NCBI RefSeq assembly: GCF_001186125.1
Contig: NW_014039724.1
Span: forward strand, 1-39,180
Reading direction: 5' to 3'
DNA length: 39,180 bases
Source of the DNA: Sphaeroforma arctica JP610
Lineage: Eukaryota
Shown here: positions 7,463 through 37,400 of the stretch, one piece after another
Layout of the letters: each line of letters starts with the position of its first letter
How positions within the stretch are numbered: position 1 is the stretch's first letter
Translations under genes and position numbers: made by a program
Notes under the pieces: generated by a model
Seen by the model: the letters and a program-made list of their open reading frames with translations, nothing else
Databases searched by the model: none
What the model was told of the DNA's origin: nothing

Positions 7463-9701
7463 CGTATAAGATTCCCATGTATATATATATAGCGTTTAGG
7501 ATGTCATGATTGATGAAAGAGATACAAATTTGTCTATGATTACACAAATCTGTGTTTTTTTGTGGACTTAGCACACACAACTCTAATCTGAAACTGTGCC
7601 TGTTAGGGGTTTAAGAGTATATCATAGAGACGGACACAGATACGTATATATTTGTAGTGACGAGTTTTGTAGTGGGCCGCATACATAGGTACATGTAGAT
7701 ATCTAAATGTGCTTTTTAATATATAGAATCCACAAACGGACACATATACATTCATATATGTAGTCGTGAGGTTTTGTACACATACGTGCTCGCATGCATA
7801 AACATCTGTAGTCCCGAGTTTACCTATTAAGCGACATATACGGGTACATATATACATCTAAATGTACATTAAATAGTCAGAAACCACAAACGGACACACA
7901 CACATGCATATTGGTAGTCACGAAATACAAAGGTACATGTACCTCTACCCCGGGTTAGTGTACTTCCGTACATATTTTGTATATCAATACTTGTATTGTA
8001 CTGTTAAATACACTTCGGAGTTTTATTCGCAATGTGTGTGTGCCTTGCTCGGCCTGTTCATGCGGAAGTCCTTAGATAGTCTTGAACTCATTTCAAGTGT
8101 ACAGGCACGCCGGCATTTTGTTATTTTTCATATCACAACAGTAATATAATAGTTACCCAACCCAAACCTCATTCAATATCAGAACACTGTTGTAATCGCT
8201 ACGGCGCAACAGTATTGTACTTTGTTTTTGTTTTTCTCTCTGAGGTGCATGGTGCTATATTCCCTTAGTTTCGCAAGCACGTATCTAATACACTGAATTA
8301 CAGTTCCAATTCTAAATTCAATTTCAATTCCGATTGCAATTTGATCTTCCGCCCCAATTGTGCCCGGACTTTGAGCTTAGCACCAGATCAAGTCACACTA
8401 TGATTTGGCGTTTACTTATGCTATCAATATACCCTTCCTTTCACTCACAAACTGGCTCCATATAAATCATATCATGACGTTCACTAATGATAGCCTGATG
8501 TATCTTTTTCATTCACAAAACAAGCTCTTTATATACATTATGTCAACCACTGATGATCCCAAACGGGTTTTTTTATTATTATTTTTTTACGTGCAGTGGC
8601 ACTGGTAAGTCCAGTCTGTTGGTACGATTTACCGATGGTGTGTTCGATGAAGATCTAGGGCCGACTGTGGGGGTCGACTTCAAGGTCAAGATGCTGGAAG
8701 TGGGAGACGATAAAAACTGCAAACTCTCCATTTGGGTAAGGTTCTATATGCTATCTATGTCTGTGTGCGGCACACTGCCTGATACATGTATATATGTCTT
8801 GTGCTACATTCGTGAGGAATGACTGTTGACACCGACTCAGTTGTATATAAAGTATTCTATGTGTGTCGATGTGCACTTTTTCATATCTGACAGCAAAACA
8901 GTGGCCATGTGTGCACAGTTAAGTGGCAGCTGTTGCCATATTGCGTCCTAATTCCATTGACACGCATCTCTCAGATATGCACACATTCAGCTTTGTGTGC
9001 ATGAGAGGTCACCCTGTATCGCGTGAATCTGTTATCGCAACCACTGGATAGCCTGGCCAGCCTTTGGAACGCCTGTAGTCTGTTGTATCGTATGTTAATG
9101 ATGCTGTAGTAGTAGTATAGGCTATTGCAGGCGCTTGGCAGTATACGTCCTCTCTCAGTCAGCATCACCCGTGGTATTTGATGGTATTTTTGAATATAAT
9201 TAAATACTGTATGTTCTTATTTTCACTTTTGCACATATACACACATGCTGAAATCCATACGAGGATATGTACATATGGATACACACACACACTCCTCTAG
9301 ACTGATAAGTGTGATCACAAGTTTACATACATCCACTTTTACGTTCATATGCTGCTAGTCTTCATATATATATGTATATATATATATGAACCCTCATCAC
9401 CCCCACACGAATTAATCAATACGCTATGCTCACAGGATACCGCAGGACAAGAGCGTTTTAGAACACTAACAGCCAGTTACTACCGTGGAGCTCACGGAGT
9501 CATATTCAGTAAGTCGTCCACGGAAACACGTATAGATATATAGATATTGATATATATATATATATATATATGTATGTCTCTTGGTGTGTCTTGCTATATT
9601 TGTATATCTCTATATATATCTATATATCTATATAATTTCGATACATTATATATATATGTGTGTGTATCTGTGTCTGTAATATAAATGTATATATATGTAT
9701 G

Positions 9702-9734
<33 letters not shown>

Positions 9735-12700
9735 TTATGCATATGTGCCTGTGTTTTGTGTATGTATACATGTATGCATTTAAATGTGTGTATATTTTGT
9801 CATATGCCCGAATGTACTGATTTTAACGCGGATATTATCAAATGTGCGCGTCTTGGAATACTTTTACCTATCAGTCGATTTGCCACACACGCACATGACC
9901 TGCTTCCATGTATATCTTGGTATATTTACTTCAACTACACCCCATTCATCATGTTATCAATCTTACGCGATGCAACACTTTCACTTGCCTGTTTGAGCTA
10001 TACGAGGGTATATGATTCCAAGGGCATTGGTCTGTGCTAAAAGCAACACACGCTTCTATCTTATGTATAATTGGCACATTCGTACGAATTTTTAGCTGGT
10101 CTTTTCATGCCTACAAGCATACGTTCGGGTTTGTATGTGTTCTTAAGTGTATTTTAGTACTAGACTCGCATGTCCATGCACATAGCTAAACGCAGCTTGC
10201 TGTCCTATTGAACCCCCGCACTATCGAGTACAATGGGCTACCGGCCCCACACTCGCTTCGATGTATATACAACCCATGAACATTGGATCAAAACACTGTG
10301 TTAAACCGTGACCCCATATGTGCTTTGTTTATCCGATCGATTCGCTTCAGTGTACGACATAACTCGAGAAGACACGTTCACCAACATTGAGGGATGGCTT
10401 CAGGAACTAGTACAATACTCCAATGGCGAGAATGTAGCCAAGATGCTAGTGGGAAACAAGATTGATAGGGTATGTACGACCTTGTCTGTGTGAGCTCTGA
10501 TATGGTTCATAACGTTATGTCTAGAGACGTACACAAACCTATTCATATGCATGTATTGTATATGTTTGAGTTTCTATTAGATAAGTATCTCACAAGACAA
10601 CACCCCGCCCTTAAACCAAGTGTGCAATCGGCATGCGCGTGCTTCCCGATTGTCGCGACATGGGTAAACCTCCAATGCCTAAACCCTGGAATCGTTACAT
10701 GAATGTATCTCCTTGCGTATGTGATAGGTACTCTGATGTGAACATAATTAGACGTAAATAGACTATAAGCACTACGAATCCGGAATTTAACATCACAGAT
10801 ATCCTCAATGTGTATATACACGTGTGTGTCCCTACAGAATACATACATGGTACCATTGATATCCTACCTGTATCACCATGACAGGTATCCTCAATATGTA
10901 TATACACGTGTGTGACCCTATAGAATGCATGTATGCTACCATTGATATCTTACCTGTATTACCATCTCTTTCTCCCAATGTGTATATACACGTGTGTGAC
11001 CCTATAGAATACATGCATGGTACCACTGATATCTTACCTGTATTACCATCACTTTCTCCCAATATGTATATAAACGTGTGTGACCTTTTAGAATGCATGT
11101 ATGCTACGATTGATATCTTACATGTACTACCATCACTTTCTCCCAACGTGTATATACACGCGTGTGACCCTATAGAATGCATGCATACTGCCATTGATAT
11201 CGTACCTGTATCGCCATTGCTTTCTCAGGAAGATGAGCGGGAAGTGTCTGCGGAAGACGCGGAAAAAATGGCAAAGAAACACAACATGATGTTTATAGAG
11301 ACGAGTGCGAAGACGGATGTGGGCGTCAAACAGGCGTTCGAGGAACTCGTACAAAAGGTATTATATCCATCCAGCCAGTGACTGCAATGTTTGTTGTACC
11401 TTGTGATGTTCATGGAATGTTAATTGTAACATATGATGTTCATGGAATGTAACATGTGATGCTCATGGAATGTTAATTATATCACGTGATATTTATGGAG
11501 CGTTAATTGTAACATGTGTAGTTCATGGAATGTACATTGTACCATATGATGTTCATGGAATATTAATTGTAGTATGTGAGGTTCATGGAATGTTATTTGT
11601 AACATGTGATATTTATGGAGTGTTAATTGTAACATGTGTAGTTCATGGAATGTACATTGTACCATATGATGTTCATGGAATATTAATTGTAGTATGTGAG
11701 GTTCATGGAATGTTATTTGTAACATGTGATATTTATGGAGTGTTAATTGTAACATGTGTAGTTCATGGAATGTACATTGTACCATATGATGTTCATGGAA
11801 TATTAATTGTAGTATGTGAGGTTCATGGAATGTTATTTGCAACATGTGATATTTATGGAATGTTAATTGTAACATGTGTTGTTCATAGAATGTACATTGT
11901 ACCATACGATGTTCATGGAATGTTAGTTGTAGCATGTTATGTTCATGGAATGTTTATTGTATCATGTAATACTCATATAATGCTTATTGTAACATGTGAT
12001 GAATATCTTAGAAAATCTTGTGCAGAGAATACATTACACATTTCCGCTTTTGATTTTTGAGTGCGTGTTCTATTACATCCAGCAATTGCCCTCAATGTAC
12101 ATCGCATTACATCTGGCTATTGGGTTTAATGTTTTTTTTTAGTATATCGATCATTTGCCCTCAATATAGAATTAATGTTTAACCTGTACTTGCCATTGAA
12201 CGATGTAGTAATATATTGGATCCTTCCCGCAGGTAAATATATGTAAATAATCATTTGGTACAGAGTAGACGATGAATAGTTCTTCAGGTTTCGGACATAC
12301 CCTTGTACTATAATATCGCCTTTGAAAATGTGCAACCCATATTTCTCCCAATCTGAAACTGAGTGATTGCAATTTATATGTATATCATCGAACTTCTTGG
12401 TATCATTAGATTGTTGTTCTACGGTTGATTGTAAAATTTTCCCGTGGCAATTATCGTATTGTAGGTTCTAGTGCTGTTTGCAGCTGTCACTGATCATGAA
12501 TATACTTGTCATTCTATCTTTATGTGATTGTTGCATAATAAGCATACGGCAAAATCAGGCACGCCTACAATCTACATTCTGGTACAGTATTTCAGACTTC
12601 AAATAAGATATATCAGTGTATATGGCGATTCTGATTCTGTTCCAGATCCTATCATCATCACTTGTTGAGTGCATTCCGGTACTTTATTGGTAACTTCACT

Positions 12701-15640: not shown

Positions 15641-16208
15641 CTAGTTGATTAACACATACAGCGGAGGGGGAATGTTATCCCCATTGGCAACATTAGGAAG
15701 CACTACAGCTGGTTCTTGTGGTCGTGAAAATACCAGAGCCGGGGGTTTGCATCAGCTAACGCATTTTAGCCGTCGGGTTTGTTGGCTGACATATCTATAT
15801 GGTCCGGTCTGCAACGTTCGTCAGTCTCATCAGACATTTTGTCCCGAAGGTTTTCTTCTGTTAATGATCGTGGTGCTTTCTGGACTCAGTACTAACCGAT
15901 GAATTTTGCATCTCGCTGGAATTCAACGACATGAATACTGAATGCACTACTGATCTCTCCGTGTGGTCAAAACCGAGTAGCGCTAATAGTAAAGAGTGTT
16001 GAGTCTCAAATAAGTGAACTTGGTCGGAAGTGGTTTACAGAAGTGCTATGTTTATTAATCACGATCCTAAGTGAAACGAGATTTTCTCTACCATCGGGTA
16101 ATGTGAAAATACCCGTCTCTATGGTTTCGGACGAGTCTCCACTTCTATCTCGTTAAACTCTTTTCCACTAATCAATCCGGTAATCTGGTCCGATCCTAAA
16201 ATAATCCC

Positions 16209-16606
16209 TGTAGAAATACGGTCAGTCTAAAATAACAAGATCGAATGAGATAACACGTTTTGGTCTTCTCGCCAATCTCCAAAATCCAATAAGTCTTTTT
16301 CGTTTTTTAACTCTTCTTCAGATGGAACTTTATTTACATTAGCTAATGTATTAACTTGACTTACGTTCTTATGTCTATCTACAAATTAGACATCTGGTCA
16401 TGAACACTTAGTACTTCTAGTGAAAATTATTCAATAAAGAACAGCTAGAGGTACGTCCCGTGTGATCGAGGATATTAAGGCTCTTACCAAAAGGCAGTCC
16501 CGATCATTCTTACACAAGCTACCACTGCTAAATCCTAACTGACTTAAATTGTATCTTAATTTATATAACATAGTTTAAAACATAGAAATATCCATCGAAG
16601 TTTACA
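16209..16606 (+). repeat. 5' LTR (398 bp)
   Basis: Starts TGTAGAAATACG and ends GAAGTTTACA. About 12 substitutions versus the 3' LTR over ~398 aligned bases (manual count), plus two indels. Confidence 0.95.
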
Positions 16607-16794
16607 TCTTTTTCAGTTATTTAGTGGTTACTGTAGTGTACTGCTTCTAAACTGTCTAATAATTGCTTACTATCCAGCGACAGGACTACAAGTATTCTAT
16701 ACTACCCCATAGTGGCTAATACTACCCTAAAGTTAGCCACCCGCTAGTTACTATACCTATACTTTAATAATTTTCCTATTCTTGAGCTACTATT

Positions 16795-18750
16795 ATGGCA
16801 AAAGAAATTCTAAAGGCAAGGGAGCCGCCAGCTCTAAGCCTGCTAAGCCTGTTGAGGTTCCTGAGGTTACTGGAGACGCTGGTTCGTCTGGTACTGAGCC
16901 TGCCGTTGAAGCTGTAGAGGAAGCCGTTTCTGAGCTTGGTTCTGAGGAAACCTCTGAGGATGACTCGTCGGACCCTAAAGCCTTGGAAGTGGATGTCTCA
17001 ACTGCCGCGGAAAGGCTCGCCAGCGTCCGTGTGTCTCCTAGTAGTGCAGCCCAGGGCCTCTGCTCGCCATCTGACCGCGAAAAGTCAGATATTGGAAAGG
17101 CTATATCTCCTGAACAAGTGTAGGAATCGTCTCGAGATCGACGGTTTATTACTACTAAAAGTCAGCCCAATCCACCTATTAACAATGATGGTGGCGTTTC
17201 ATTTCGTGAATTTCATTGAATGCCTCGCCACTGAATGCCTCGCCACTGAATGTTGGGGCGGGAGACGCGAATTTTGGGGACGCCATAACTCGACAACGAG
17301 TGGTTGGATCTTCTCAATCTCGATGCCATTTAAACCCGCAAAGATGAGCTTTTAAAGGAGCTAGCCGCTGCCGCAGCTTCTGACCCTTCGATCATATCCC
17401 ACGTGGCCGATATTCTTCAAAATATTCCGGGCCGGGCTTCAAACCTGGGACCCACTGGTTTACCAGCCAGCAGGGTTACAACTGAGCCAGATACCGCTGG
17501 TGAAGTGGGTAAAACCTCAACATCCAATATCTATAGCTCGGAAGCTACAATCGACCATCCTCTCGACAAACCTAACCCTTAGGCTTACCACCCTCATAAC
17601 ATCGATCCTCATATACCATCTAACCTTGGTAATCACGACTTTGGCAATTGTTATACCTCACTAGAGTACCCACTCTAGCTCTGAAGTCGAAGAAGTGAGA
17701 ACCAGACAACATCGTCTCAGGCTATTATGTTCTGGAATGCAAGTCCTTGAGGACCGTTTATTGAATGACTCTGACCTTGACGATAAGAAACCGGATAACA
17801 TTCGCTCTCTAATCGATAACAAGAGAAAGGAGATAGACTCCATTTTGGCACTAGCAGCGCGTAGCACTGAGCGTGAGCCTCGTGAACGCTTCGAACCAAG
17901 CTTTATAAAGCAGCTAGGTAACGCGAAGGCTGAGGTCGATTTCTCTACTAATGAGAGTACAGTGGAGACACTGAAGGCCGTTGACCAACTTAAGGATTCT
18001 GCCAGCCTTAAGGATAAACAGATGATGAATGCATTTATTTATCTCTGTGAGTCAGAAGAATGGAAAACTATCTTGAAGGCCCATGAGCCCAACTGGAAAG
18101 CCCTACCCTGGCGCCAGTTGCGTGAGAATATACTTAACGCCTTCTTTGAAGATACACGGGACCGTGAACTTCTAGAGTCCCGCAAGTCCTTTGCGAACGA
18201 TACTACTATTCGAGGTGCTCTAGCTCATATGACACATATGAACACTCGGATGGGAGGTCGTACCTATACTGGCGAATATTTATTAATTTGTCAGATGATG
18301 GAGACTCTGGAGGCCAACCTTTTTAAGAAGGTCAATGATGATATTATCGCCTATGGTGATTTGCGATCTATGCCTTGGTCTGTCTTTGAGAAGATAGTTC
18401 AAAAGCATACCAACTCATCTACTAGAGTACTTAGTACCTCGAGCTTTACCCAGCCCGCTAAGCGTACCGCGATAGAGAATAACACTGCGCGTAATACTAA
18501 GAAACCTCGCACTACTGCTGGAGGGGGTAAAGGCTCTACTTCTACTGAACTAAAGGGTGAAAGGAAGGAGAGGGCACCTTGCAAGAAGTGTGGTTACAAC
18601 CCCATTAAACGTGATGGCAAGTGGAATGGTAAACACGACTCTGTTAAGTGTGCACCAGGCAAGCCAAACTTTGGACACTATATGAACGAGTGTACTACTT
18701 GCAAGGGTACTAATGGTTGGCACACAGAACATACCGGACGTCCAAGTTAA
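16795..18750 (+). pseudogene. gag-like ORF (disrupted acidic/Pro-rich N-terminal part; intact frame 17695-18750)
   Basis: Located between the 5' LTR and protease. The 351-aa open frame ends in Cys/His-rich CKKC...H...C...H...CTTC...H..H. A probable original start ATGGCAAAA at ~16795 is frameshifted into KRNSKGKGAASS. Confidence 0.75.
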
Positions 18751-18766
18751 GCACTGACAGTTCCAT

Positions 18767-19213
18767 ATGTGTGCACTAGAGCAAGATTATGAGAAAAGGT
18801 TCAATAAAATCTGTACCAAAGGAGATGAACGTATATTTCAAACCGTTTATGTACATGGAGAAAAAGTTATAGCACTATTTGATCCAGGGGCTGAAGTCTC
18901 TGCTATCTCACGCCGAGTAGCCTACGCTGCAGATATAGCTATCCATAACGAAACAACAAATTTAATCTTGGGAAATGGCAAAGTTACTACTTGCGAAGAA
19001 GCCATTGACTATGCACACATAGTGTTGTCAGATAGAAGAGAAGTGACGACTCGCCTAATTTTTACGGACATGTCTCAGAAATACGATTTAATTATAGGTA
19101 TGACTGATCTTCTCAGTTTAGGTATAACTCTCACTGGTCTGCCAAATAAAGATCAGTCAGATGATAATATGTTAAGATACCTAAACCTCAGGAAGGTGAA
19201 GCAAAGGATATGA
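18767..19213 (+). pseudogene. Retropepsin-like aspartic protease domain of pol
   Basis: VIALFDPGAEVSAIS (D-[T/S]-G position reads DPG at 18881-18889) and YDLIIGMTDL (C-terminal IxG motif); frameshift into RT near 19200. Confidence 0.85.
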
Positions 19214-20030
19214 TTCCGCACTTTACCGATATAATTATGGACTTAATTATACAAGACAGGAAGATTGCACTAACTGACTGGTGTATGTTTAAGTTCTCTA
19301 ACGGGTACGTTAAGCTTGACTTAACAAACGTCGACTTCTCTAAGTTGAAGTGTTCTTCACATAACTACGTGAGTTGGAGACACAAAGACGTTGTCAAACC
19401 CCAAATTGAAGATTGGTTAAAACAGGGTCTAATTGAAATCAATTATGATGCAATCCCAGTTAACTTAGCTCTCTTAGCGGTCGATCAATATAAATCTGAT
19501 GGAACGTTGAGTAAAACAAGAGTAGTACTAGACCTGTCGCCAATCAACACACTAATTCCGCAACATAGTTTCCCCTTACCAAAGATAAGCGGGATACTAC
19601 ACAAAATGGAAGGTGCGACTATCATTTCCAAGGTAGACTTAAAAGCTGCATTCCATCAATTACAAATATATGAGCCGCATAGGAAATGACAAGTGCTCTT
19701 TTGCTAAAGATACCATACACTTACTTGGATACAAGGTATCTGCAGCAGGGGTAGAAATTGATCCTGACAAGAAACAATTTCTGTTGGATTTATCAACACC
19801 GATTACTGGAAGAGATGTGAACTCTGTGTGTGGGTTTGTTAACTTCTTCTCGGATTCGGTACCTCATCTTTCTCATTACTTAAAGCCTTTCAGTCACCTA
19901 CGGCTGCACAAAGGACCTTTGGGAAAGCTTTGGACTAAGGAATGTGATGATGCGTTTAAGCTAGTCAAAAGTAAAGTAATGGACACACCCATCACGCAAT
20001 ACCCTGTGGATGGCGTCCCATTCCAAGTAG
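19210..20030 (+). pseudogene. Gypsy reverse transcriptase with internal deletion of the catalytic core
   Basis: KTRVVLDLSPIN, FPLPKI and SKVDLKAAFHQLQI are joined at ~19686 directly to KCSF...LLGY...GVEIDPDK and GFVNFF; the PFG/YxDD segment is absent. Confidence 0.9.
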
Positions 20031-20380
20031 CAACCGACTTCGGATTGAGCGGTAGGTGGAGTGCTATACCAAACGATAAATGGTAAACCGCACTACATAT
20101 AATTATTTAGCAAGAATTATAATAAGAGTCAACGGAATTGCTCTACCGTTAAGGAAGAGCTCCTTGCTATTGCTACTGCGTTATGACAGTTTGAAGACTA
20201 CCTTTGTGGAAGTTACTTCACTGTCGCCTGTGATCAAAATTCATAAACATATTTAAAGGACATGAACCCTGATTCACAGTTGGTGAGCCGCTGGCATGAC
20301 ATTATTGCTAAGTTCGCTTTTAACATTACACACATACCAGGAATACATAATCATTTTCCTGACATGCTCACTCGACTTGT
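20020..20380 (+). pseudogene. Gypsy RNase H domain (stops/frameshift)
   Basis: VATD(fs)SD*AVGGVLYQ...FSKNYNKSQRNCSTVKEELLAI...FTVACDQNS*...RWHDIIAKFAFNITHIPGIHNHFPDMLTRL. Confidence 0.9.
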
Positions 20381-20414
20381 CCCTGACTACCAGAAAACAG
20401 TTAAAGAGTTATAA

Positions 20415-20815
20415 GCAACCGATTGGATGCTTTATAAAAAATGGTCTAACCTCGCTCAATCAAGATGGGGTCCATTACTATTGATATGTTCGCCGCAGAA
20501 CATAACAAACAGGCTTCTGATTATATGTCGTTGACTCATCCTAAAGGTGATGCCTTTCAACTTGACTTATCAAAGCATAATGCGTGGGCTAATCCACCTT
20601 GGCAACTTATCGCACAGTTGTTAAATTATGTTAATATTACTTAATCTACCTTTACGCTGTGTTGTCCCTTACGTAGCTCCGACCCATGGATACGTGATTT
20701 AATTAATATGATACAAGACGAGCCTATCTATGTCGAAACCGACACGTTCTTGTATTAGGGATCCTATTCTATTAAGGAGACACCTTGGAAACACACCATC
20801 GTTTGTCGCATCGGT
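20415..20815 (+). pseudogene. DNA N6-adenine methyltransferase (Dam-like, DIRS-type MT) domain within pol
   Basis: ATDWMLYKKWSNLAQSRWGP(fs)TIDMFAAEHNKQ...KGDAFQLDLSKHNAWANPPWQLIAQLL...TLCCP...PW. SAM-binding-type DxFA at 20483-20494 and catalytic NPPW at 20591-20602; same frame as the downstream integrase, with stops at 20642 and 20756. Confidence 0.85.
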
Positions 20816-20941
20816 CCTGCAGGTACCACTAAGTGGAAACCCACAACCGAGTTCTTAGCTAAACTAGAGGAGTCTAAGGAGTTTGAACAAAAGCTCAAGA
20901 CTCGTACAACACATGCACCCAACAAGAATGCAGTCGAGGTA

Positions 20942-22150
20942 TTGCCGATCGAGACGGCATTAGATCGTAAATACTTGGAACTAGCTAAGGCCATGGATCA
21001 AAGACTCAAAGCTCTAAGAGAACCTGAAGCTCGCACTGAACTACTTAAAGCGCTGTTTAAACAACAGCCAGGAGTTGCGAAACAACTGAAGAAGATACTT
21101 CAACAATCTAATGTTGTCAATTATGTATCTCAGGAGTCTACCCCTCCTGATACTGAGGTTGCCCTATCTAACGGGACTATGGTTCATCCAGCCAGCGTTA
21201 CACAGAATCTGACTGACTTAAAAGAGCTTGAGAGTAGAGTTAAAATAATACGTAATTTAACTCATCGAGCATATGAGCATACTTATAAGATGGCTATTCG
21301 TGCAGGGCTTGATCACCCGGCGTTGAAAGAAACCATACGTGAAGTATACCGACGCTGTACTGATTGTGGAAAGAACCAGATCAAGCGCTACGGTTGGGCA
21401 CCCCTAAAAAGTTTGACAGAAGACCAACCGATGCGCCGAGTCATAGTCGAATTGATTAAACTCCCGCGATCCAAGCATACTGGCGATGTATATATCTGTC
21501 ATTTCTTATGTGTGGCTTCGGGCTATAACATGCTTTATGCAATACCGAACAAACGCCTGCAAACAGTGGCAGAGTTATGCTATCACGTCTTTAATGACTT
21601 CGGTTTCCCCCGAGTACTATGTTCTGATAACGGTAGTGAGTTTTGTACCGACGTAATGGAGGCACTTATACTCGTATCAGGCATGACCCATAGGCGTGGT
21701 GTTCCTTATAAACCTCAAACGCAGGGTGCAAATGAGACACGTCATAGAGAACTAAAGAAGCTATTGCGTACCGCACTGGATGACGTTGAGGATATGTGGC
21801 CTTATCCTTTGAAATGGGTTCAGACTCAAATGAATAACTACATGAATCCTCAAACTGGAACACTCCCATTTCACTATTTCTTTGGCCACTATAGTGAATT
21901 ACAAGCAACGTTTGACAAAACTGCGCCCGAGAAACACGTTACTCCGTGACTAAAAAATATCGAGCATATGCAGAACGTTGTTTACCCCTGTTTACTCGAG
22001 CATAAAAATCGTGTCCTACTTAAAGCGCATGACCGATGGAATAACACTAAGAACATTGTTCAGTTCAAAGTTGGCGATTATGCTAATATTATAAATCGCA
22101 ATGTATTTCGTACCATGATGAGAAGAGTGATACTTACGAAATAAATAACA
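20942..22150 (+). pseudogene. DDE integrase (rve) with N-terminal HHCC-like zinc-binding region
   Basis: LTHR...CTDC; FGFPRVLCSDNGSEF; GVPYKPQTQGANETRH; FKVGD after the stop at 21947-21949. Confidence 0.92.
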
Positions 22151-22242
22151 TAGATGGTACTAGCGCAACTAATCTGGGCACTCACCGTATCCCTACCTTC
22201 GAACTGTCATTCGCTCGCTCATTTGATTTTGATGTCCCAGTT

Positions 22243-22400
22243 ATGGAGTCACAAGTCAGAGACATAATCGTCAAAACATCCGAAGACGGTTATACTTACT
22301 ACAAGACCCGTTTTATGGATGGGACAGTAGCTTGGCTAACATCCGATGCGTTTCGTGAATCTCGCGACTTCCTTCGTATTTTTAAAAAGAAATGGAATAA
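22243..22400 (+). pseudogene. Putative degenerate chromodomain-like C-terminus of pol
   Basis: QVRDIIVKTSEDGYTYYKTRFMDGTVAWLTSDAF resembles the V-x-x-I...Y-x-V-x-W/F-x-G...W chromo pattern, at the position where chromoviruses carry it. Confidence 0.45.
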
Positions 22401-22787
22401 GCGTTTACATAAGAACACACGAGATAAACGGAAAGGATTTCCTCAGGTGATGGATATGAAATTCCCTACTTGCCACCTACTTCCTATGTGACTAAACTTT
22501 CTGATCTGCTTACCAACAGAGCAGAAATTTCTTCAAACTTACTTACTAATGAAGAACAACCTTTGGCAATTATCTTACCAAGTAATAAACGTAAGGCGCC
22601 TACATCGGAAATGGTTACTGGACCAAATACTAATCGACATAGAGTACAACATGAGTCTTGAACTCGTACATATAGGCACATACTTACTCGATAAGCCATG
22701 ATCGAAACCGTTTTACTTTGGTTTTCGCTTTACAAACTAGATCATACCTTCACGTACGTCTGTAGTCCTAAACGCTACTGGGGGCTA

Positions 22788-23387
22788 TGTAGAAATACGG
22801 CCTCCGGTCAGTCTAAAATATCAAGATCAAATGAGATAACACATTGGTTTTTATTTGCATTTAAAATAATTTAATACAAGTTAATTTTCCAATATTTCCA
22901 AAGTGTTCTAAATTCACTTTGATGGCTCCAATAGCCTGACTATTTGGTATGACTCATTTACTTGGACCTATTTGAGACGATAGTAGATGTAGGATATTAT
23001 AAACTGAATTTTATAATCTCTGAACTACTACTTACAGGTTTTGATCTTCTCGCCAATCTCCAAAATTCAATAAGTCTTTTTCTTTTTTTAACTTTTCTTC
23101 AGATGTAACTTTATTTACATTAGCTAATGTATTAACTTGACTTACGTTCTTATGTCTATCTACAAATTAGACATCTGGTCATGAACACTTAGTACTTCTA
23201 GTGAAAATTATTCAATAAAGAACAGCTAGAGGTACGTCCCGTGTGATCGAGGATATTAAGGCTCTTACCAAGAGGCAGTCCCGATCATTCATACACAAGC
23301 TACCACTGCTAAATCCTAACTGACTTAAATTGTATCTTAATATATATAACGTAGTTTAAAACATAGAAATATCCATCGAAGTTTGCA
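22788..23387 (+). repeat. 3' LTR (600 bp)
   Basis: Starts TGTAGAAATACG and ends GAAGTTTGCA; contains 195 bp (22843-23037) and 7 bp (~22800) absent from the 5' LTR. Confidence 0.95.
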
Positions 23388-23391
23388 TCCC

Positions 23392-23505
23392 CTAAGGGTC
23401 CTCTGGTCAGATCCCATAATAATCCCCTAGGTCCGGTCCCCTGGTCCGGTCCTAAACTTGCCTTTCAGGTCGGTGTTCTGGTCCAGTCCTAAATATTCGC
23501 CTAGG
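23392..23505. repeat. ~35-38-bp degenerate tandem repeat (CTGGTCCGxTCCTAAA...) interrupted by the gypsy insertion; first unit at 16186-16208
   Basis: ctggtccgatcctaaaataatccc lies left of the element; ctggtcagatcccataataatcccctagg, ctggtccggtcctaaa and ctggtccagtcctaaa lie right of it. Confidence 0.75.
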
Positions 23506-28484: not shown

Positions 28485-31400
28485 TTACTGCTGGCGTCTA
28501 CGTGACGACTGTCGACCGTACAATAGGATGTTACACTTGGCTAACCATGCATCGCGCAGCTGCTGACACTGCAAACGGATTGTAGAATTGAAATTAAAGT
28601 TGAGAAATAGCACACACATACACACCCATCATAATTGGGCAATACGAATATATTGTTTTGTGAAGAGTTCAGAAGTAGTACACATGAAACTCGAAATACA
28701 ATCATATGGAAAGTTGAGAAGAACATTCATAAACAGATTTGGTCCACGCGCCTCTACACTCATCTCATGGATGTATACTTCAAAAACATGCAACTAATCC
28801 GAGATCACAGTGTATTTTAATACACAACCAAAGGATGCATCGAATGTATACACCGAAATGTACTGATACTTACGTAAACATAGCGTTACGAAATGTACAG
28901 ATACTTACGTAAACATAGCGTGACGAAATGTACAGATACTTATGTAAACATACCGTCACGCAGATCGGTGAGTCGAGCTCGTTGAACAAGAAGCAATTGG
29001 TGAACACCAGAGTGCAATCAGACATGTACTCATTCATAGTCACAGTCTGTGAGTTCAGCGCGTCTCTTATAGAACCGAAGTCCATGGCTTCCGTAATTTT
29101 CTCGTAGTACCCCTGCGAGAAATATTGTAAATGGATATAAACAAAATCAAACCTATAATTCGGTATAGAGCACACAAACGAAAGAAAGAGAGAAACACCA
29201 CGTTTGATGTGCTGAAAATAGCAATACATAAACATACGATATAGACATGGATAATGAATAATGAATAATGGATATATATATATATATATTCGTGTACGTA
29301 CATATATATACTTGATATATATCCACTCACGTACTTAATTAGACATACTAGTTTATGTATATAAACAAAATTAACCCTATAGTTCGGTATAGAGCACACA
29401 AACGAAATAAAGAGAGAAACACCACGTTTGATGTGCTGAAAATTGCAATACATATACATATACATACGTACATATATATCCACTCACGTACCTCTATATG
29501 CTGTGGGACTGGCACGTTGAACATGGACGCGTATTCGGAGGTCATGATACCCGCGTGTAACTTGCGTATATCTGCCAACTGTACAGGCACCTTAGGAGTA
29601 CCCGACTCATCCATAGCCTTTTCAACTTGTTTCAGCCTGTTGGTGTATCGAGAGATGAGAAAACTTTGGCATGGACATGTGATTACATGTGTGGCATGGG
29701 GAGATGAGAAAACTTTGATATGCATGTGTGTGTGTGTATGCCTATATCGTATCCAACTCACTATTGAGCTCGTGGAAATATCTAATCACGGCTTAAATAT
29801 GTATGAGCCTACAGGTAAAATCTTTAGGTGGCGATACCTGATTAGAAGTATTTTAAATCCGTACTATCAGAAGTACAATATTCACGGCTGTCACATATCA
29901 AGCTGCAATATACATAAGAAATTTAACCAATGTGCCATATGACCACACCAGATAATCACTCATAGTGTAGTGTGTCCTCCACATACCGCTCACGGTAGCA
30001 GATCTGTAGGAGCTGTGCCTGCTCAACGATGTTGCTGTTTTTCAGATTGTAGCTTACACAGTTGCTGATAGACAACTCCATCAGCGATGCATATTGCTGA
30101 AGGTTCTTGATCATACCCTGTGCGTTTGTTATGTAGCATGTAGGTGTGAGTGGGTACACAAAAACACAAAAACACACACATATATATATATACATACATT
30201 TATCTATATATCCATATATATCGATACATATTTATATATATCGATATTATACGCATATACACCATTCGAAGACATTTACGAACGTGTATCTCATGCAAGT
30301 GTATAAGCATATAAAATAAACACAACTACAAATAGCCTCAATCAGGCGCATATGCATGTATGAGTACACACAACCCCAAAATTTATACTATACAATTGAA
30401 CAGCTGCAAGCACAATCAATTAAACACGTCATTAAGCGCAGCGCACACATACGTCAGCAATGCAGATTCCCAGATTGTGCAAGTCCATGGGCTTTAAGAT
30501 GGTGGCTAGGTAACGCTGTAGCTCCTTCTGTTTGAACCCGGGCAGTCTGAGGGTCTCAAACACCGGCCGACTGAAGTGTACGGCGGTATGGGGTGTGGTG
30601 ATGAGCTCTGCGTGTAGTAATCCCAACTGTTCCATGGCTCGTGCAGAGAGCGGCGCGTCCGATAGGGTCTGAGAGAATTCGTTGGCGTGAATATTGTCCC
30701 TGTGGGTGGGAGGTGGGCCGGCAAGGAAGAAAGACATGGCGAAGTGACTTAGATATTAATATGTACGTGTTGGAGTGCTTGATATCATATGCATAGTATT
30801 AACGGCTAATAATAATAAGGAAGAAACGTATTAACGCGGCTAATAATAAAAAGGATGAAACATATTAACGCGGCTAGCACAGAGAGGAGTGGAAAATAGC
30901 AACAGCATGTGTGCTCTAGACCCCAGAAACACATAACTTAACAAGAAGCTGCTCTAGCACTTGGATACAGGTATGTCGACGAGAGATATACTCTTGACCA
31001 TAAATACAGATATAACAAAATAAAAGGACACAGACAACTAAAGTAGACTCTGAAAACATGGTTCAGAAATAGATATGTGCTAAAATCAGGCTTAAAGGTA
31101 ATAGGATATGAACAAAAATATTGATCGCAGCATTCGGATTTATATCAACTATTAAAACACAGAGGCACTAGAATTGTCAGTCAAACCAATGGCACATGTA
31201 GACAATTGACCACGTGCACATACGTGGCTCCTAGTTCGATGTAATCCTTGTGGTTGTCCCAGAGCACCTTCAGATGGGCCGTGAAGACAGATTCGAGGTG
31301 CTGTGCTGCTTTGTACACGTCCGACTCTATTTTATTGTACGCCTTGGCATTGTTAAACACCAGACAGACATCTCGGATGTAGAAACTTGGCCTATTCGTG

Positions 31401-34400
31401 TATGCGCCCTCCTTCGCATTGTCTCGAATGGTGCCTGTTGAGAGAGATGGACGTGGAAATGAATGAGACGGATGACTTGAAATACAGACGCTAGTTATCA
31501 ATGCAAGCATGGAATCTAAACAGGGGGATGCATAATATATATACATATATACATACATACATACATATATATATATATATACATACATACATACATACAT
31601 ACACACACGTACATCTATATATATACATACACATAAACAACGAAATTGCAGTATCTGTCCACACAGAGCAATCTATACTCGTTTATTACTCTCAACATCT
31701 ACATAACCCTATTGCAACTTCTACTATCGAGCTTACATGCATCGCATTAGTAACTACAAATTTCCTTGCTTGATACAATTGTTATACAAATAGATATATG
31801 TATTTATGTATATAAGCATGTATGCATGCATATATATATATATATATATATGTATATGTATGTGTATATGTATATGTACACACACATATATATATACACA
31901 CGCATACATTTATATATATATATATATAAATATACATACATACATACAAATATAACATACCTAAGTCCATGGGGTTCTGTATCGTGCTATAATAGTCGGG
32001 GAAAAAGTTGATATTCACTGGGTCGCCGAAGTATTCACGTGCATCGAGGCAGTTCCACAGCACAGGTTGTATGGCGACTAGCGCCCTCAGCGGCATGTTA
32101 TCCCACCTGCCATGCGTTATATATGCAGCGTGTATGTTCAGCGTTTGTGTGGCGAATACGGTTTGTGGTGGGTATGTAGTCATTTAAACCGTCCATCTGA
32201 TGTGTAGTATATGCACTATAATTCTTAGTTTCCGCTATGTCTTGCTTGTTGAATCTCAACTACACATATTACAAAAAACGGTACGAACGGACTATTCACA
32301 AACACAAACCATTGAACGCTCAATGTGCATACGCACTATATAAACACGCTATTCAAATACAATTGCTAATTGCTAGTTGCAGGTCATGACTAGAAACAAG
32401 AACTCCTGTGCACTTTATCATACGGTCCAGCCACACCCTGAACTTAACACCAACCAAAAACAAGCCCCAAACACATACTACCCGCACACACGCACTACAG
32501 ATACATTTACCATTCGCTACCAGCATCAGGTTGCACCCCATTACTGGCAAACAAGCCGTCGTCGTCTACGCCGTTCTTCTTTCTGCCTCCCCTGTGATGC
32601 GTATCGTACGGCTGCACACTCACAGACGCCCGAGAGCGTGGAGTGCCCTTCAGCACTGCTTTAACGCTTTTGATCGCCACACGCGGCTGTCTTCCCCCCT
32701 GTGTGTGTGAGGTTCCTTCTGGTGTGGGTATATTCATGTCGCCGTTCACATGCTCACGCCCATCTCCTCGTCCCATCGGCACGGGCGTGCGTTTTCGTTG
32801 AGGGGTTTGCGTGATTTTTCCTTTGCCCTTTGGTACAGAACTTCCAAAGGAGGCCCTCTCCCCTTCCCCCTCGCTATCCGTCATACCCGTCTCCCCATCT
32901 GACGCATTCGGTTCGCTGTCAGGTTCGACACTGGGTTGTTCCCGGTAGTTCATCCCCACGGCCGCAGCCCTGCCCGAGCCTGCACCGGTACCTACGCCTG
33001 CGCTATTAATAGAACCCCTGTGTGGCACAACCTCTCGGTCCATCCCCTGGTCACTATCACTACCACTCCCGGCCAGTGCCTGGCTGTTCTGTGACGTGTA
33101 CCGTGTTCGTGCCCGTTTGCCCTTCGACCGCCCTTGGGAGGAGCCTTCGCCCGCGTCTGCACTCGCGTCTGAGTCCCCATCCACAGCGTAGCTTTCCACA
33201 CGGCGGCGCTTTGCGGCACCCCTCTGGTTCTTTCTGAGGGGGTTGTTAGTCTGTGCCGGTCTACCACGCCGGGGCTTAACTGCAATATCTGAGTAGGCAA
33301 TCACATCGTCGCCACTGCCACTGCCATTGGTATTGGCATTGGCATTAGTATTGTTGTGACTATCTTTGTCGTTATTGTTGTAGGTATTATTATTGTTATC
33401 GTCACAGTCGTTGTTGGTATCATCGGCTGATTCGCTGTCACTGGAGAGTACAGGCCTCTTTCCCCTAGCCCGCGAGGTAGTACGGCGAGTGCGTGATGGT
33501 TGCCGTGCCTGTGTATGTATGTGGGACGATTGGGTATATTGAGTAGCATGCGAAGAGTGTGGTGTATACTTGTTTTGTGTGTGCCTGTGTATGTATGTGG
33601 GACGATTGGATATATTGAGAAGCATGCGTAGAGTGTGGTGTACACTCGTTTTGTGCCTTTGCTGGGGTGATACAATACATTTGAGAAAGTTTACGTTGAA
33701 AGCGTTACTTAATTAGACTTTCCTAAGGCAACAAATAGTTGTACACTCAGGAACTCATATGTACTTATGCGTGCTGTGCATTCGGCAATATATACACTTG
33801 TAAAGGTATACAAATATACATTTAGTGTGTTAGTATATTGATATAAGTATTGACGTATAACTGGCCATCATGTGTGCTAGTAAGTTGTGAATGTGTGTGT
33901 GAGTGTGCGCGTCCTCGTACTTTTTTTTCGCCGCTAGTGTTTGCGAGAAGGGTCGGCGTGCAGGAAATCAACGGGTGTGATAACATATACCGTCCTACAT
34001 GTATATTCACCAATAAGATATATGACCATATACGCATACATAATAGCGCAAACTATGTATTAATATACAAGAATACACACATATGTATAGATATGTCGTA
34101 CGAGTGCACACATTTATGTGTGTATACACCTACTATAAGCACACCTACACACCTTTGATCGGCTTGCCGACGAAGCTCGTTTACGTCCGCGCCTATTGGG
34201 CACTATAAAGGTAGCCAAGCATATGTTATGAATTAGTTTATGTATGTGACAAGCGTGTGTACAATTTAATTTTAAATATCAGACTGGGAGGTCACAGTAG
34301 ACACGCATACACAGGAATAAATACAAATACAAAGTCAAAATACGTATGCATACACATACACACATAAAATATATACATTTATACACACACATATATATAT

Positions 34401-34427
34401 ATACACATACATACATAATATACATAA

Positions 34428-34470
<43 letters not shown>

Positions 34471-37400
34471 CATACACACTCACATATATATATATATTAC
34501 GAATATTTGAAAATACACGCATACACAAGCATAAACAGATATATACACGTGTATACAAATACTCATGCACTTACCTCCAAAGTCTGAGTCTGACCCATCG
34601 CCAGAATCAGTATCGCTCGATGGCGGAGTATCATTGTCGTCTGAAATGTCGGATTCTACAGCTCGTTTACCTCTCCCAGTACCATTAACACCTCGCGATA
34701 ACCTCTTTTTGGATTTATATTTGGGGTTGGGTTGGGGGTTGGCGCCAGTTTTGGATCCGACTCTGGCTTTTGATGTGGCCTTGCGTTTACCTGTGCTGGC
34801 GATTTTCTTCCTGCCCCGGGTGCGGGTCGCTTTGGGGTATTCCAAATCCGACAAATCCGACGAGAAATTGGACTCAGTGTCGGATTCTGACACATCAGTT
34901 TCGGACTCCTCCGACGAGGTGACATGATAGGCATCACTGCTTGAAGGCTGTGTAGTTTAATTTGGAGAACGATGAACGATATGTTTGAAAATAGGTTAAA
35001 ATTTCAGATGACAGTAGAATATATAGGGAAGTGCGCATAAACTAACCGGGAATCCGAATGATTATTATGATCGGATAGCGTGCCTAGCAGGCTCACTAAC
35101 TTTAAAGTATGCGCCTATATACATGTAGATCTTAGACATTGAAATATTATGAAGATAAAAATATATATTGGTAAAAACATATTCGTAATAGCAGATATCT
35201 CATACACAACACATGTCAATTTATAAACAATTATCCTTAGAAGCTAGGCGTCCATACAAACAAACACACACACACACACACACGCACACGCACACATACC
35301 GCATTCGTGACCACTTCGGGGGCATCGACATCGATTGTGTCATCATCAGCGTCTATGTAGACAGTATTGTTGCGCCTTCTGGCGGAGGTTCCTGTGATAA
35401 AACGGTTGATCAGGTATCAGATAAGGATTTCAATGGGGCGTGTGTGCTTGGCATACATACTCGCATACATAAGACAAACAGCATCATTATCGGCATCAAT
35501 ACAGACGGTGCTGGTGAAAGGGAATGCGAGAAAAACATTACAGTGAGGTGTGTACGCTATCTGTGGTACGCATTCATAAGACCTCGCTGAAACAAGATAC
35601 ACAGAACCAACTATTGTAAGTTAAACATATCAGCAGTATAAAATACACACGTGCACAAAAACATACTCCGATACACACATATGCGTACACACACACCTCT
35701 TTGGTACATTCGCTGTAGTTATGTTTGCTTACCATTGGCAGCCGGCGATCTCCGTGACGGAGCACGTCTGTTGGCAGCCCAACGATCGTTCGCTGATGAT
35801 ACCTACCCAGACACAGATACATAGGACTACTTCATAGCACACACACACCAGGCATCATACACCGGAACATAAATGTATACACATACATACGCTGACACAA
35901 CTACGTATGCGTACCATTCCCAGCCGGCGATCTTCCGGAGCGGTCCAAGGGAGGGGCGCGTCTGTTGGCGGCCAAACGATCGTTCGCTGAGGTACTCAGA
36001 ATAACTGCCGTGCTCGCGCTAACCTTGTTCTCCTGCTCTTTCTTCCGCCTGCGATTCATTTCACGTTTATACGCACTGTTTCGAGCACGCGACTGAGCCA
36101 GCTTACGCTCCTGTTCCTGCTGACCGAGCGCCACCTGTATGAGAGGTTTAGTGATTAGGGATTAGGGTTGTGTATTAATAATTTTTGTAAAAGGTTTAAC
36201 ACCGGGTATATTATGAAGAGATGTAAAGCGGGATTTCTAAACAGTCTCTTAAAAAAGAAGACTATAGTTATTATAGTTCCTCATTAGCGACAACTCCGCT
36301 CGTGCTCTTGAATAACTACTGCATTCATTCAGAAATTTAGAAACTTTCGGGATAAGGACCTAAAAATAATATTTAAACTCTCGAGTTCAGGGTTTATATT
36401 TATCCTGAAAAGACTATACAAACTCATGGTCCACTTCTCTTTGGAATTTAGATACTTTCGGGGTAAGGACCTGAAATCAATATTCAAACTCTCAAGTTCA
36501 GGGTTTATATTGATCCTGAAAAGACTATACAAACGTATTGTACTCTTCGACCTAGCGTGTCCTGCAGGTGTTGTCATGGGTTGGACCGCAGACATTCATA
36601 GGAACAGTCCAAATAAGCATATGCGCCATACTGGGTGAATCGTAGTACTCTGATATGTAACATTAACGAGAGACTACACTATCACGCAAGACATGTTATC
36701 TTGATGTTCGGTATATTTCGCTGACAGCGATTAATAGTACGGTGTGCCAGTGTCGGCTGAATTCTTACAAAGCTAAACGCGCCACTCCAATATAGATAGA
36801 TATACATTACACACAATGATAAACATGAGTGAAGGTTCGAAATGACATACTATCTTAGTACTGACTTTGGTCCGTTTCGATAGTTGATACGCAAGATTGC
36901 TCTCTTCCGCTTTAGCGAGTTCATCACCATGCCTCACATACTCTTCCACCGCACGCCTCGGCTGTACTGGCCAGTAGTTGCAGTACTCTTCTTCCGTTAG
37001 CTGGATAGAATGAACCCAACGTATGCATACGATCAGAAGAGAAGGAAACACATCGCCCGATATATAGAATAATGAAGTGACAGACGAACAGATTATATAT
37101 AGGATCTATAAGCCAACAAGCGAACAGATTGTATATAGGATCTTCAACAAGTGAACAGATTGTATATAGGATATATAAGTCAACAAGCGAACAGATTGTA
37201 TATAGGATCTATAAGTCAACAAGCGAACATACAGTTTTGCGTGAGACTGGAAACGAAAGGGCTGCAAAGCGGCAGATAAGCCTACTGTTGACGACGCACA
37301 CAGTGCAATCGATCGGTGATTGTATTGGTCAATGACAACATAACCATTAAAACAAACATAAAATGTATAAATATATACATACAATGCTATAACAATCAAG

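What the first reader, a model, noticed from the sequence alone, without database searches (positions are those of the whole stretch)
20415..20815. Ty3/gypsy LTR retrotransposon encoding its own DNA N6-adenine methyltransferase between RNase H and integrase
Seen: directly after the RNase H end (HNHFPDMLTRL), pol continues with DWML...RWGP(1-nt fs)TIDMFAAEHN...DAFQLDLSKHNAWANPPWQLIAQLL...LCCP...PW. It then runs in the same frame, through two stops and a ~140-aa linker, into the HHCC/DDE integrase. The domain is missing from the ORF track because of those lesions. Established: DxFA (SAM-binding) plus [DN]PP[YFW] is the signature of phage-Dam-like N6-adenine MTases, and this module sits after RT-RH in DIRS/Ngaro tyrosine-recombinase retroelements. 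This element, however, has an aspartic protease, a DDE integrase, direct TG..CA LTRs and a TSD, so it is a true gypsy element. Inference: a gypsy lineage captured the DIRS-type MTase and may deposit 6mA on its cDNA or new insertions, for example to mimic host active-chromatin 6mA or evade silencing. I do not recall this as a standard gypsy architecture, but novelty needs a literature/database check.
Basis: partly seen in the sequence, partly recalled or inferred. Interest (0 to 1): 0.92.

Follow-up and report, generated by a model that had tools for sequence, protein, structure and literature searches.

The report
Dead gypsy retrotransposon carrying adenine methylase
This is a broken copy of a gypsy-type jumping gene that carries a real phage-like adenine-methyltransferase domain between its RNase H and integrase; intact relatives keep the domain, which likely marks the element's own new DNA, but this kind of element was already described in a 2026 preprint.

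Summary
Observation confirmed. Window 16209-23387 is an LTR retrotransposon with TG..CA LTRs and a 4-bp TSD. It has the order protease, RT, RNase H, Dam-like methyltransferase (20421-20815; DMFA and NPPW motifs), integrase. This copy is dead: a deletion removes the RT active site, and there are several stops and frameshifts. Intact single-ORF relatives exist (80% and 68% identical in the domain). Two stops in the domain are absent from at least 99% of laid depth in four public runs. The domain folds like phage Dam and PCIF1, and differences between family types look like purifying selection.

It is not new. A May 2026 bioRxiv preprint (10.64898/2026.05.21.726589) describes DAM-LTRs, including an ichthyosporean gypsy lineage, and proposes the same 6mA-seeding model. 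Sphaeroforma and Abeoforma proteins are this element's closest named relatives. This scan has also found DAM-LTRs in other genomes.

Small additions: a degenerate chromodomain-like tail on the integrase, although the preprint says this lineage has none; altered catalytic motifs (CPPW, NPPC) in close relatives; and structural kinship to the RNA-cap methylase PCIF1, which keeps an RNA substrate or a non-catalytic role open.

The parts
16205..16208 (+). left target-site duplication TCCC
   Evidence: the same 4 bases follow the 3' LTR; short and in a C run, so weak evidence alone
16209..16606 (+). 5' LTR, TG..CA, 398 bp, with 7-nt and 195-nt deletions relative to the 3' LTR
   Evidence: contigs of run X2 turn to unrelated sequence behind 16606 (59 records, agreement 0.36)
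16737..17664 (+). degraded low-complexity 5' coding region, likely the start of gag or an upstream ORF (inferred; no family match)
17665..18750 (+). 361-aa ORF with a C-terminal Cys/His cluster, gag by position (no Pfam gag match)
18824..19126 (+). aspartic protease (DPGA at 18881)
   Evidence: Pfam Asp_protease_2 E 4.7e-7
19351..19742 (+). reverse transcriptase; a deletion at 19687/19688 removes about 79 codons (P0003 residues about 313-391, including YLDD)
20000..20385 (+). Ty3/gypsy-type RNase H, with a frameshift near 20038 and stops at 20046, 20100, 20184, 20244
   Evidence: Pfam RT_RNaseH E 2e-18
20418..20818 (+). Dam-like N6-adenine methyltransferase domain (DMFA 20483, NPPW 20591); frameshift at about 20474, stops at 20642 and 20756, a 6-nt indel near 20734; a further stop just upstream at 20412
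20819..21250 (+). 144-aa linker, fast-evolving (33% identical between P0003 and P0004)
21251..21949 (+). integrase zinc-finger and DDE core (first His and first Asp altered in this copy; stop at 21947)
   Evidence: Pfam rve E 2.4e-8
22237..22410 (+). degenerate chromodomain-like segment at the integrase C-terminus (likely; no Pfam Chromo match)
22777..22787 (+). short G-rich tract before the 3' LTR, likely the polypurine tract
22788..23387 (+). 3' LTR, TG..CA, 600 bp; 12 mismatches to the 5' LTR in 397 aligned columns (K2P 0.031)
   Evidence: 70 X2 contigs carry unrelated sequence before 22788
23388..23391 (+). right target-site duplication TCCC

Best explanation
This is an inactivated copy of a multi-copy Ty3/gypsy-like LTR retrotransposon whose pol carries a Dam-like N6-adenine methyltransferase domain between RNase H and integrase; it likely belongs to the ichthyosporean DAM-LTR lineage described in 2026, and in intact copies the domain likely methylates adenines of the element's own new cDNA. 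Shown: the architecture, intact single-ORF relatives, breaks private to this copy, the methyltransferase fold, and co-descent of the domain with RT and integrase. Inferred: Gag-Pol would be packaged with the RNA. The 136-aa domain is a bare SAM-binding core with no target-recognition insert, so it would work in cis, tethered next to RT/RNase H, on the nascent cDNA or RNA:DNA hybrid. After integration, host AMT1 would maintain ApT 6mA, making the insertion look like active chromatin and keeping it transcribed. This copy can do none of this. The identity of the feature is about 0.97 certain and lineage membership about 0.9; the confidence given here is for the whole mechanism.
For: Intact PR-RT-RH-MT-IN ORFs P0003 (80% identical in the domain) and P0004 (68%). 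The integrase tree puts the window, 15 of 16 RH-MT-IN proteins and 5 of 5 partial MT-IN proteins in one branch (SH-aLRT 100) among gypsy integrases. Best solved sequence relative is Ty3 Gag-Pol, E 6e-63. The stops at 20642 and 20756 are replaced in at least 99% of laid depth in 4 of 4 runs, and the indel at 20474 is listed in 4 of 4. Majority differences between run types are 9 synonymous to 6 missense (pN/pS 0.17, binomial p 9e-4); changes private to the window are 2 to 8 (pN/pS 1.0). AF2 model of the P0004 domain: pLDDT 97; best viral match phage DNA N6-adenine methyltransferases, E 8e-8, TM 0.77. Canonical [NDS]PP[YFW] in 23 of 29 LTR-borne domains. Named relatives: Sphaeroforma arctica SARC_08637, 86% over 139 aa; Abeoforma whisleri P0136 and P0139, 43-45%, in the same 10-row MT branch (SH-aLRT 94). 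The preprint reports more 6mA and more expression on DAM-LTRs than on other LTRs in S. arctica and A. whisleri, and an association with AMT1-encoding hosts.
Against: No activity has been shown. Heterologous DAMs gave no 6mA in E. coli (preprint). Iyer et al. judged DIRS MTases likely inactive (passage). The nearest intact relative P0003 has CPPW, and 78% and 73% of laid depth in runs X1 and X8 reads Cys at the motif's Trp, so abundant copies may not need the canonical motif. The closest solved fold is the RNA-cap methylase PCIF1 (Z 10.8, against 8.3 for T4 Dam). 6mA enrichment could follow from transcription and host AMT1 alone. The contrast between private and between-type changes is not significant on its own (Fisher p 0.10). 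No host genome was available, so the host and AMT1 were not tested.
Confidence: 0.5

Rival explanations
1. The domain is kept as a non-catalytic module: it binds SAM, RNA or cDNA, or stabilises Pol, and the 6mA on DAM-LTRs is laid by host AMT1 because the elements are transcribed.
For: CPPW in P0003. Trp to Cys in the motif in most laid depth of X1 and X8, while the rest of the domain changes mostly synonymously. 6 of 29 LTR-borne and 10 of 56 DIRS-type domains have non-canonical motifs. Negative E. coli assay. Iyer et al. 2016 view. Earlier scan notes report lost motifs in other lineages (leads only).
Against: 23 of 29 LTR-borne domains keep the canonical motif across sequences only 35-68% identical, and the first motif's Asp is present in the 28 of 29 that cover that position. 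Contig depth is not copy number, and amplified NPPC copies could be mobilised in trans.
Confidence: 0.25
2. The domain is an active adenosine-N6 methyltransferase of RNA, like PCIF1/CAPAM, acting on the element's own transcript (cap-adjacent or internal adenosines) to aid stability, translation or packaging.
For: Top solved-structure match is cap-specific adenosine methyltransferase in both searches (Foldseek E 7e-4, TMq 0.72; VIA Z 10.8, rmsd 2.8, 130 aligned), followed by rRNA adenine methylases (Z 8-9). 22 of 59 aligned relatives also match Pfam PCIF1_WW (best E 1e-4). Iyer et al. place DIRS MTases in the PCIF1 clade. PCIF1 makes m6Am on mRNA caps (PMC10946433 passages). It would explain the negative DNA assay. 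The preprint's main text has 0 mentions of PCIF1 or CAPAM.
Against: Phage Dam-type proteins are closer than PCIF1 by structure (E 8e-8 against 5e-4 for viral PCIF1-like proteins) and by profile (58 of 59 match Dam, best E 9e-17). The PDB ranking may only reflect the lack of a solved PF05869-type enzyme (no significant PDB sequence match). DNA 6mA is enriched on DAM-LTRs (preprint).
Confidence: 0.2
3. The segment is a one-off DIRS fragment nested in an ordinary gypsy copy, or a chance motif pair.
For: The window's own piece is below the Pfam cut-off and is broken by stops and a frameshift.
Against: It is colinear with intact single-ORF relatives across all of pol. Contigs cover the segment in 30 of 30 bins in 4 of 4 runs. 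The 56 DIRS-type proteins hit the window only at the element's RT and MT. The RNase H next to it is gypsy-type. Motif pair in 2 of 1000 shuffles.
Confidence: 0.01

Closest known systems
Ichthyosporean DAM-LTR lineage (Fernandez-Moreno et al., bioRxiv 10.64898/2026.05.21.726589; Pirum gemmata, Abeoforma whisleri, Sphaeroforma arctica)
   Same: Ty3/gypsy-like LTR element with a Dam domain in pol. The closest named relatives are S. arctica (86%) and A. whisleri (43-45%, same MT and integrase branches) proteins. No Pfam-detectable chromodomain.
   Different: The preprint says the lineage lacks chromodomains; here a degenerate chromodomain-like tail is likely present. Close relatives have altered catalytic motifs. 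This copy is dead. The preprint's figure with this lineage's exact domain order could not be seen.
DIRS1-type tyrosine-recombinase retrotransposons (RT-RH-MT pol; PMC3783388 passages)
   Same: Homologous MT domain (about 29-31% identity to the three DIRS-type proteins compared), in the same position after RNase H.
   Different: This element has an aspartic protease, a DDE integrase, direct LTRs and a TSD. Its RT lies outside the DIRS branch in the best trees, its RNase H is gypsy-type, and no tyrosine recombinase was found.
Phage Dam-type N6-adenine methyltransferases (Pfam PF05869, phrog_111)
   Same: Same fold and motifs (TM about 0.77-0.82).
   Different: Embedded in a polyprotein; only 13-23% identity; substrate untested.
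PCIF1/CAPAM cap-specific adenosine methyltransferase
   Same: Closest solved fold (Z 10.8); same clade according to Iyer et al. 2016 (PMC4738411 passage).
   Different: 14-15% identity; a 136-aa core against a 482-494-residue enzyme; a cellular RNA enzyme, not part of a retroelement.
KnitGypsy-Dnmt3 (PMC5890265 passages)
   Same: A gypsy pol that carries its own DNA methyltransferase.
   Different: A cytosine-5 enzyme, structurally unrelated.

Membership tests
Ty3/gypsy LTR retrotransposon | direct LTRs with TG..CA ends and a short TSD | tested here: met
   TSD 4 bp; junction diversity at both LTR ends
Ty3/gypsy LTR retrotransposon | pol order PR-RT-RH-IN with a DDE integrase | tested here: met
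Ty3/gypsy LTR retrotransposon | RT and integrase group with gypsy elements | tested here: met
   Best PDB sequence match Ty3; integrase branch lies among gypsy integrases; DIRS RTs form their own branch, support 100. Caveats: quick trees; no BEL, copia or retrovirus outgroup; RH-MT-IN RTs sit apart from the sampled canonical gypsy RTs; an AU test did not reject P0003+P0004+DIRS as one group (p 0.137)
Ty3/gypsy LTR retrotransposon | primer-binding site after the 5' LTR | tested here: inconclusive
   No TGG start and no LTR complement longer than 7 nt; no host tRNAs to compare
DAM-LTR (2026 preprint) | Dam (PF05869) domain within an LTR element's pol | tested here: met
   the window piece alone (E 0.0012) would miss the preprint's 1e-5 threshold; intact P0004 domain E 3.6e-7
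DAM-LTR (2026 preprint) | Asn-Pro-Pro plus aromatic catalytic motif | tested here: met
   NPPW in the window and P0004; not in P0003 (CPPW) nor in most laid depth of X1 and X8
Ichthyosporean DAM-LTR lineage | DAM domain groups with those of Abeoforma, Sphaeroforma, Pirum | tested here: met
   10-row MT branch with A. whisleri P0136 and P0139, SH-aLRT 94; 13-row integrase branch with P0139, 97; S. arctica fragment 86%.
Ichthyosporean DAM-LTR lineage | no chromodomain | tested here: inconclusive
   No Pfam Chromo match, so it is met by the preprint's method; but a clade profile gives 11.9 bits for P0003 and 8.6 for the window, against 2.0 for the best of 300 shuffles
Ichthyosporean DAM-LTR lineage | host is an ichthyosporean that encodes AMT1 | not testable with these tools
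   no genome held; host inferred only from the element's named relatives
DAM-LTR (2026 preprint) | insertions enriched for 6mA and expressed | not testable with these tools
   needs modification-aware long reads; only contigs could be laid
DIRS1-type YR retrotransposon | tyrosine recombinase; no protease or DDE integrase; inverted terminal repeats | tested here: not met
   protease, integrase and direct LTRs present; pol is fully accounted for by P0003

The most novel reading that the evidence does not exclude
DAM-LTR 'Dam' domains are not DNA methylases but PCIF1-like RNA adenosine methyltransferases, or pseudo-enzymes, that act on the element's own transcript. The RH-MT-IN elements form one old gypsy lineage that carried both this domain and a chromodomain from the start, and the ichthyosporean branch has since eroded the chromodomain and, in successful subfamilies, the catalytic motif.
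Probability: 0.2. Interest if true: 0.6.

Novelty: already known. Interest (0 to 1): 0.2.

Why it matters
As a discovery it matters little: the architecture, the lineage and the model are in a May 2026 preprint, and this copy is dead. The open question is what the domain methylates. This family offers a natural test set: intact NPPW, CPPW and NPPC variants in closely related, apparently abundant copies, in a lineage for which 6mA long-read data exist according to the preprint. If methylation tracked the motif, it would show that a transposon writes an active-chromatin mark on itself. If RNA were the substrate, it would recast the whole DIRS/DAM-LTR domain family.

Tried and rejected
No whole genome was held, so in-genome copy counts, dN/dS across full copies and an AMT1 search could not be run.

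A PDB sequence search with the MT profile gave nothing significant (best E 0.57, Chk1).

No RNA holder is on record among the runs. X16 and X17 are only guessed to be RNA and all laid runs are contigs, so nothing is concluded on expression.

ESM Atlas for the P0004 domain: mostly unnamed clusters at score 0.94, and one cluster at 0.93 with Dam on 14% of members; a lead only. A second Atlas query for the C-terminal tail did not complete.

The careful RT tree did not finish; the quick tree is reported (21 of 49 DIRS-type and 47 of 114 non-DAM gypsy RTs picked, one DIRS row dropped for length, four redundant rows left out).

A DIRS remnant next to the element was suspected from P0005's tail. It was rejected: the 15697-15810 match is to that tail only and not to a DIRS RT profile.

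No PBS or self-priming site was found; no tRNA in the window.

The chromodomain model was built on an alignment that already held chromodomains, so its fold matches (best E 0.014, Z 7.9) are not independent evidence.

For the pN/pS counts, 7 of 32 variant rows with low share (25% or less, in one run) were left out; the classes were assigned by hand.

The 'DIRS' label rests on my own RT profile seeded from P0134 and on the RT-RH-MT architecture; recombinase ORFs were not checked.

Look-ups of earlier findings by sequence and by genome gave nothing.

Of seven literature searches, searches listed no description of Dam in gypsy elements other than the preprint (one search listed 20 of 63 papers); two searches concerned PCIF1. 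The preprint's supplementary figures and tables could not be seen and may list this family and its domain order.

Full report
Observation. A 144-aa stop-free linker then leads into the integrase. There are three stops, not two: 20412 just before the domain, and 20642 and 20756 inside it. The piece after the frameshift, read with X at the stops, matches only Pfam Dam (PF05869), at E 0.0012 and below the cut-off. The motif pair appears in 2 of 1000 shuffles of the element.

The element. It spans 16209-23387. The 5' LTR is 398 bp and the 3' LTR 600 bp, both TG..CA, with 12 mismatches in 397 aligned columns and TCCC on both sides. Inside lie a gag-like ORF, protease, RT, gypsy-type RNase H, the Dam-like domain and a DDE integrase. 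The copy is dead. About 79 codons of RT, including the YLDD active site, are deleted at 19687/19688; there are frameshifts near 19173, 20038, 20474, 22105 and 22450, eight stops in pol, and altered first His and first Asp in the integrase. No PBS was recognised.

Intact relatives. A search with the domain among longer proteins returned 3 hits of 19 candidates. P0003 (1400 aa) and P0004 (1376 aa) are single ORFs with PR-RT-RH-Dam-IN, 80% and 68% identical to the window's domain. P0005 is a Sphaeroforma arctica gene model 86% identical over 139 aa of the domain's end and the linker, a linker that is only 33% identical between P0003 and P0004. Between P0003 and P0004 the domain (67%) is as conserved as RT (61%) and more than the integrase core (58%). 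A profile search of 1.84 billion representatives found 10,733 proteins at E 0.001 or better and listed 150. Among all 283 proteins then held, 166 carried the domain: 56 with a DIRS-type RT, 22 with a gypsy-type RT upstream of the domain (20 of these with an integrase downstream; some are redundant), 6 with the domain upstream of RT, 7 with integrase only, and 75 alone. Two top hits, P0136 and P0139, are Abeoforma whisleri proteins, 43-45% identical to the window's domain.

Family variation. Of 24 runs listed, 20 hold the stretch or part of it. Contigs laid from X1, X2, X16 and X17 cover all 30 bins of the element, and many X2 contigs leave it at exactly the LTR ends into unrelated sequence, which points to many insertion sites. 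On 20400-20840 (X1, X2, X8, X16), at least 99% of laid depth reads another letter at both in-domain stops in all four runs, and the indel at 20474 is listed in all four. Of 32 variant rows, 10 are essentially private to the window (2 synonymous, 6 missense, 2 stops; pN/pS 1.0). Fifteen are majority differences between run types (9 synonymous, 6 missense; pN/pS 0.17, binomial p 9e-4), and 7 low-share rows were left out. This fits selection on the domain in active lineages and neutral decay in this copy, but the numbers are small, the two classes do not differ significantly (Fisher p 0.10), and contig depth is not copy number. One between-type change turns the motif's Trp into Cys in 78% (X1) and 73% (X8) of depth, and P0003 has CPPW.

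Trees. All are quick IQ-TREE searches with SH-aLRT only. In the RT trees the DIRS-type rows form one branch (100). The window's 5' RT half joins P0003 and P0004 inside a group of RH-MT-IN elements that is separate from the sampled canonical gypsy RTs (99). An AU test did not reject forcing P0003 and P0004 together with DIRS (p 0.137), and no BEL, copia or retroviral outgroup was included, so the deep position is open. The best solved sequence relative of P0003 is Ty3 Gag-Pol (E 6e-63). In the integrase tree the window, 15 of 16 RH-MT-IN proteins and all 5 partial MT-IN proteins form one branch (100) among gypsy integrases, and a 13-row sub-branch (97) includes Abeoforma P0139. In the MT tree the window sits in a 10-row branch (94) with both Abeoforma proteins, apart from 55 of 56 DIRS-type domains (90). 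The domain has therefore travelled with this RT and integrase for a long time.

Fold. AlphaFold2 on the P0004 domain with 59 aligned sequences gave pLDDT 97 and pTM 0.91. The best viral matches are phage DNA N6-adenine methyltransferases (E 8e-8, TM 0.77). The best solved match is PCIF1/CAPAM, the RNA cap adenosine-N6 methyltransferase (E 7e-4; Z 10.8, rmsd 2.8, 130 aligned), ahead of rRNA methylases and T4 Dam (Z 8.3, 107 aligned). By profile, 58 of 59 alignment members match Dam and 22 of 59 match PCIF1_WW. The domain is a minimal core. I infer that it lacks its own target-recognition part and would depend on being tethered in Pol.

What is known. I read the whole main text of bioRxiv 10.64898/2026.05.21.726589 (figures and supplements not visible). 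It reports Dam domains in non-DIRS LTR retrotransposons for the first time, with five lineages. One is an ichthyosporean lineage (Pirum gemmata, A. whisleri, S. arctica) with a conventional Ty3/gypsy-like organisation and no chromodomain. It finds more 6mA and expression on DAM-LTRs than on other LTRs in A. whisleri and S. arctica, an association with AMT1-encoding hosts, and no 6mA from heterologous expression in E. coli. From passages only: PMC3783388 places the MT domain in DIRS pol; PMC5890265 describes cytosine methyltransferases in gypsy and DIRS elements; PMC12695648 reports AMT1-linked ApT 6mA on active genes, including in ichthyosporeans; PMC4738411 puts DIRS MTases in the PCIF1 clade and calls them likely inactive; PMC10946433 states that PCIF1 makes cap m6Am. 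The scan's own index holds 23 notes with these words in at least 3 other genomes, and the 8 shown cite the same preprint.

A side result. The integrase tail (22237-22410) looks like a worn chromodomain. Several RH-MT-IN relatives have Pfam chromodomains, and closer ones score on a custom profile (P0007 E 3e-15). A profile from 12 clade members scores P0003 at 11.9 bits, the window at 8.6 and P0004 at 3.0, against 2.0 for the best of 300 shuffled proteins. Pfam does not detect it in the window. A model built on a chromodomain-rich alignment matches chromodomains, but that is not independent evidence. I put it at about 0.75 that the tail descends from a chromodomain; conserved aromatic positions are partly lost, so binding is doubtful.

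Mechanism and verdict. Most likely, in intact copies the domain is carried into the particle as part of Pol and methylates adenines of the nascent cDNA or hybrid, seeding a mark that host AMT1 maintains after integration (0.5; all steps inferred). A non-catalytic role (0.25) and an RNA substrate (0.2) remain live. A nested DIRS fragment or a chance match is excluded.

Noticed in passing
window 22237-22410 (+): Degenerate chromodomain-like segment at the integrase C-terminus; close relatives have clearer ones, although the preprint describes the ichthyosporean lineage as lacking chromodomains.
   Followed up: yes
window 20600-20602; runs X1, X8; protein P0003: Catalytic-motif variants in close relatives: Trp to Cys in most laid depth of two runs and CPPW in P0003.
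   Followed up: partly
window 16181-16208 and 23388-23500: The element sits in a patch of short GGTC(C/A)G...TCCTAAA-type repeats that resemble the start of its own LTR. Contigs of X1 and X17 join 16156 to 23418, so the flank itself may be a repeat with empty-site versions.
   Followed up: partly
window 16606 to 22787/22788: Contigs of X1, X2 and X17 join the end of one LTR to the start of another: tandem copies or LTR-LTR circle junctions.
   Followed up: no
window 16607-16640 and 18748-18770: No recognisable primer-binding site after the 5' LTR; pol starts in the +1 frame just after the gag stop, with a stop ahead of its first Met, so how pol is expressed is unclear.
   Followed up: partly
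window 8499-11378 (+): Exons of a Rab-type small GTPase gene with long microsatellite-rich introns (Pfam Ras).
   Followed up: no
window 28873-38890 (-): Exons of a bromodomain protein, with a WD40-like exon near 38582-38890 that may belong to the same gene.
   Followed up: no
window 203-580 (-): Short match to DUF4500 (E 7e-5).
   Followed up: no
window 10808-11226 and 11328-12077: Tandem arrays with 84-nt and 30-nt periods in and after the Rab gene.
   Followed up: no
proteins P0178, P0189: Polyproteins with an endonuclease/exonuclease/phosphatase domain, Dam, a very divergent RT, gypsy-type RNase H and integrase; they resemble the preprint's Euglena chimeras.
   Followed up: no
proteins P0030, P0040, P0111, P0159: Dam-bearing gypsy proteins outside the window's branch: Dam before the protease or RT (P0030, P0040, P0111), or RH-Dam-IN inside a chromodomain-bearing branch (P0159), consistent with separate captures.
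   Followed up: partly
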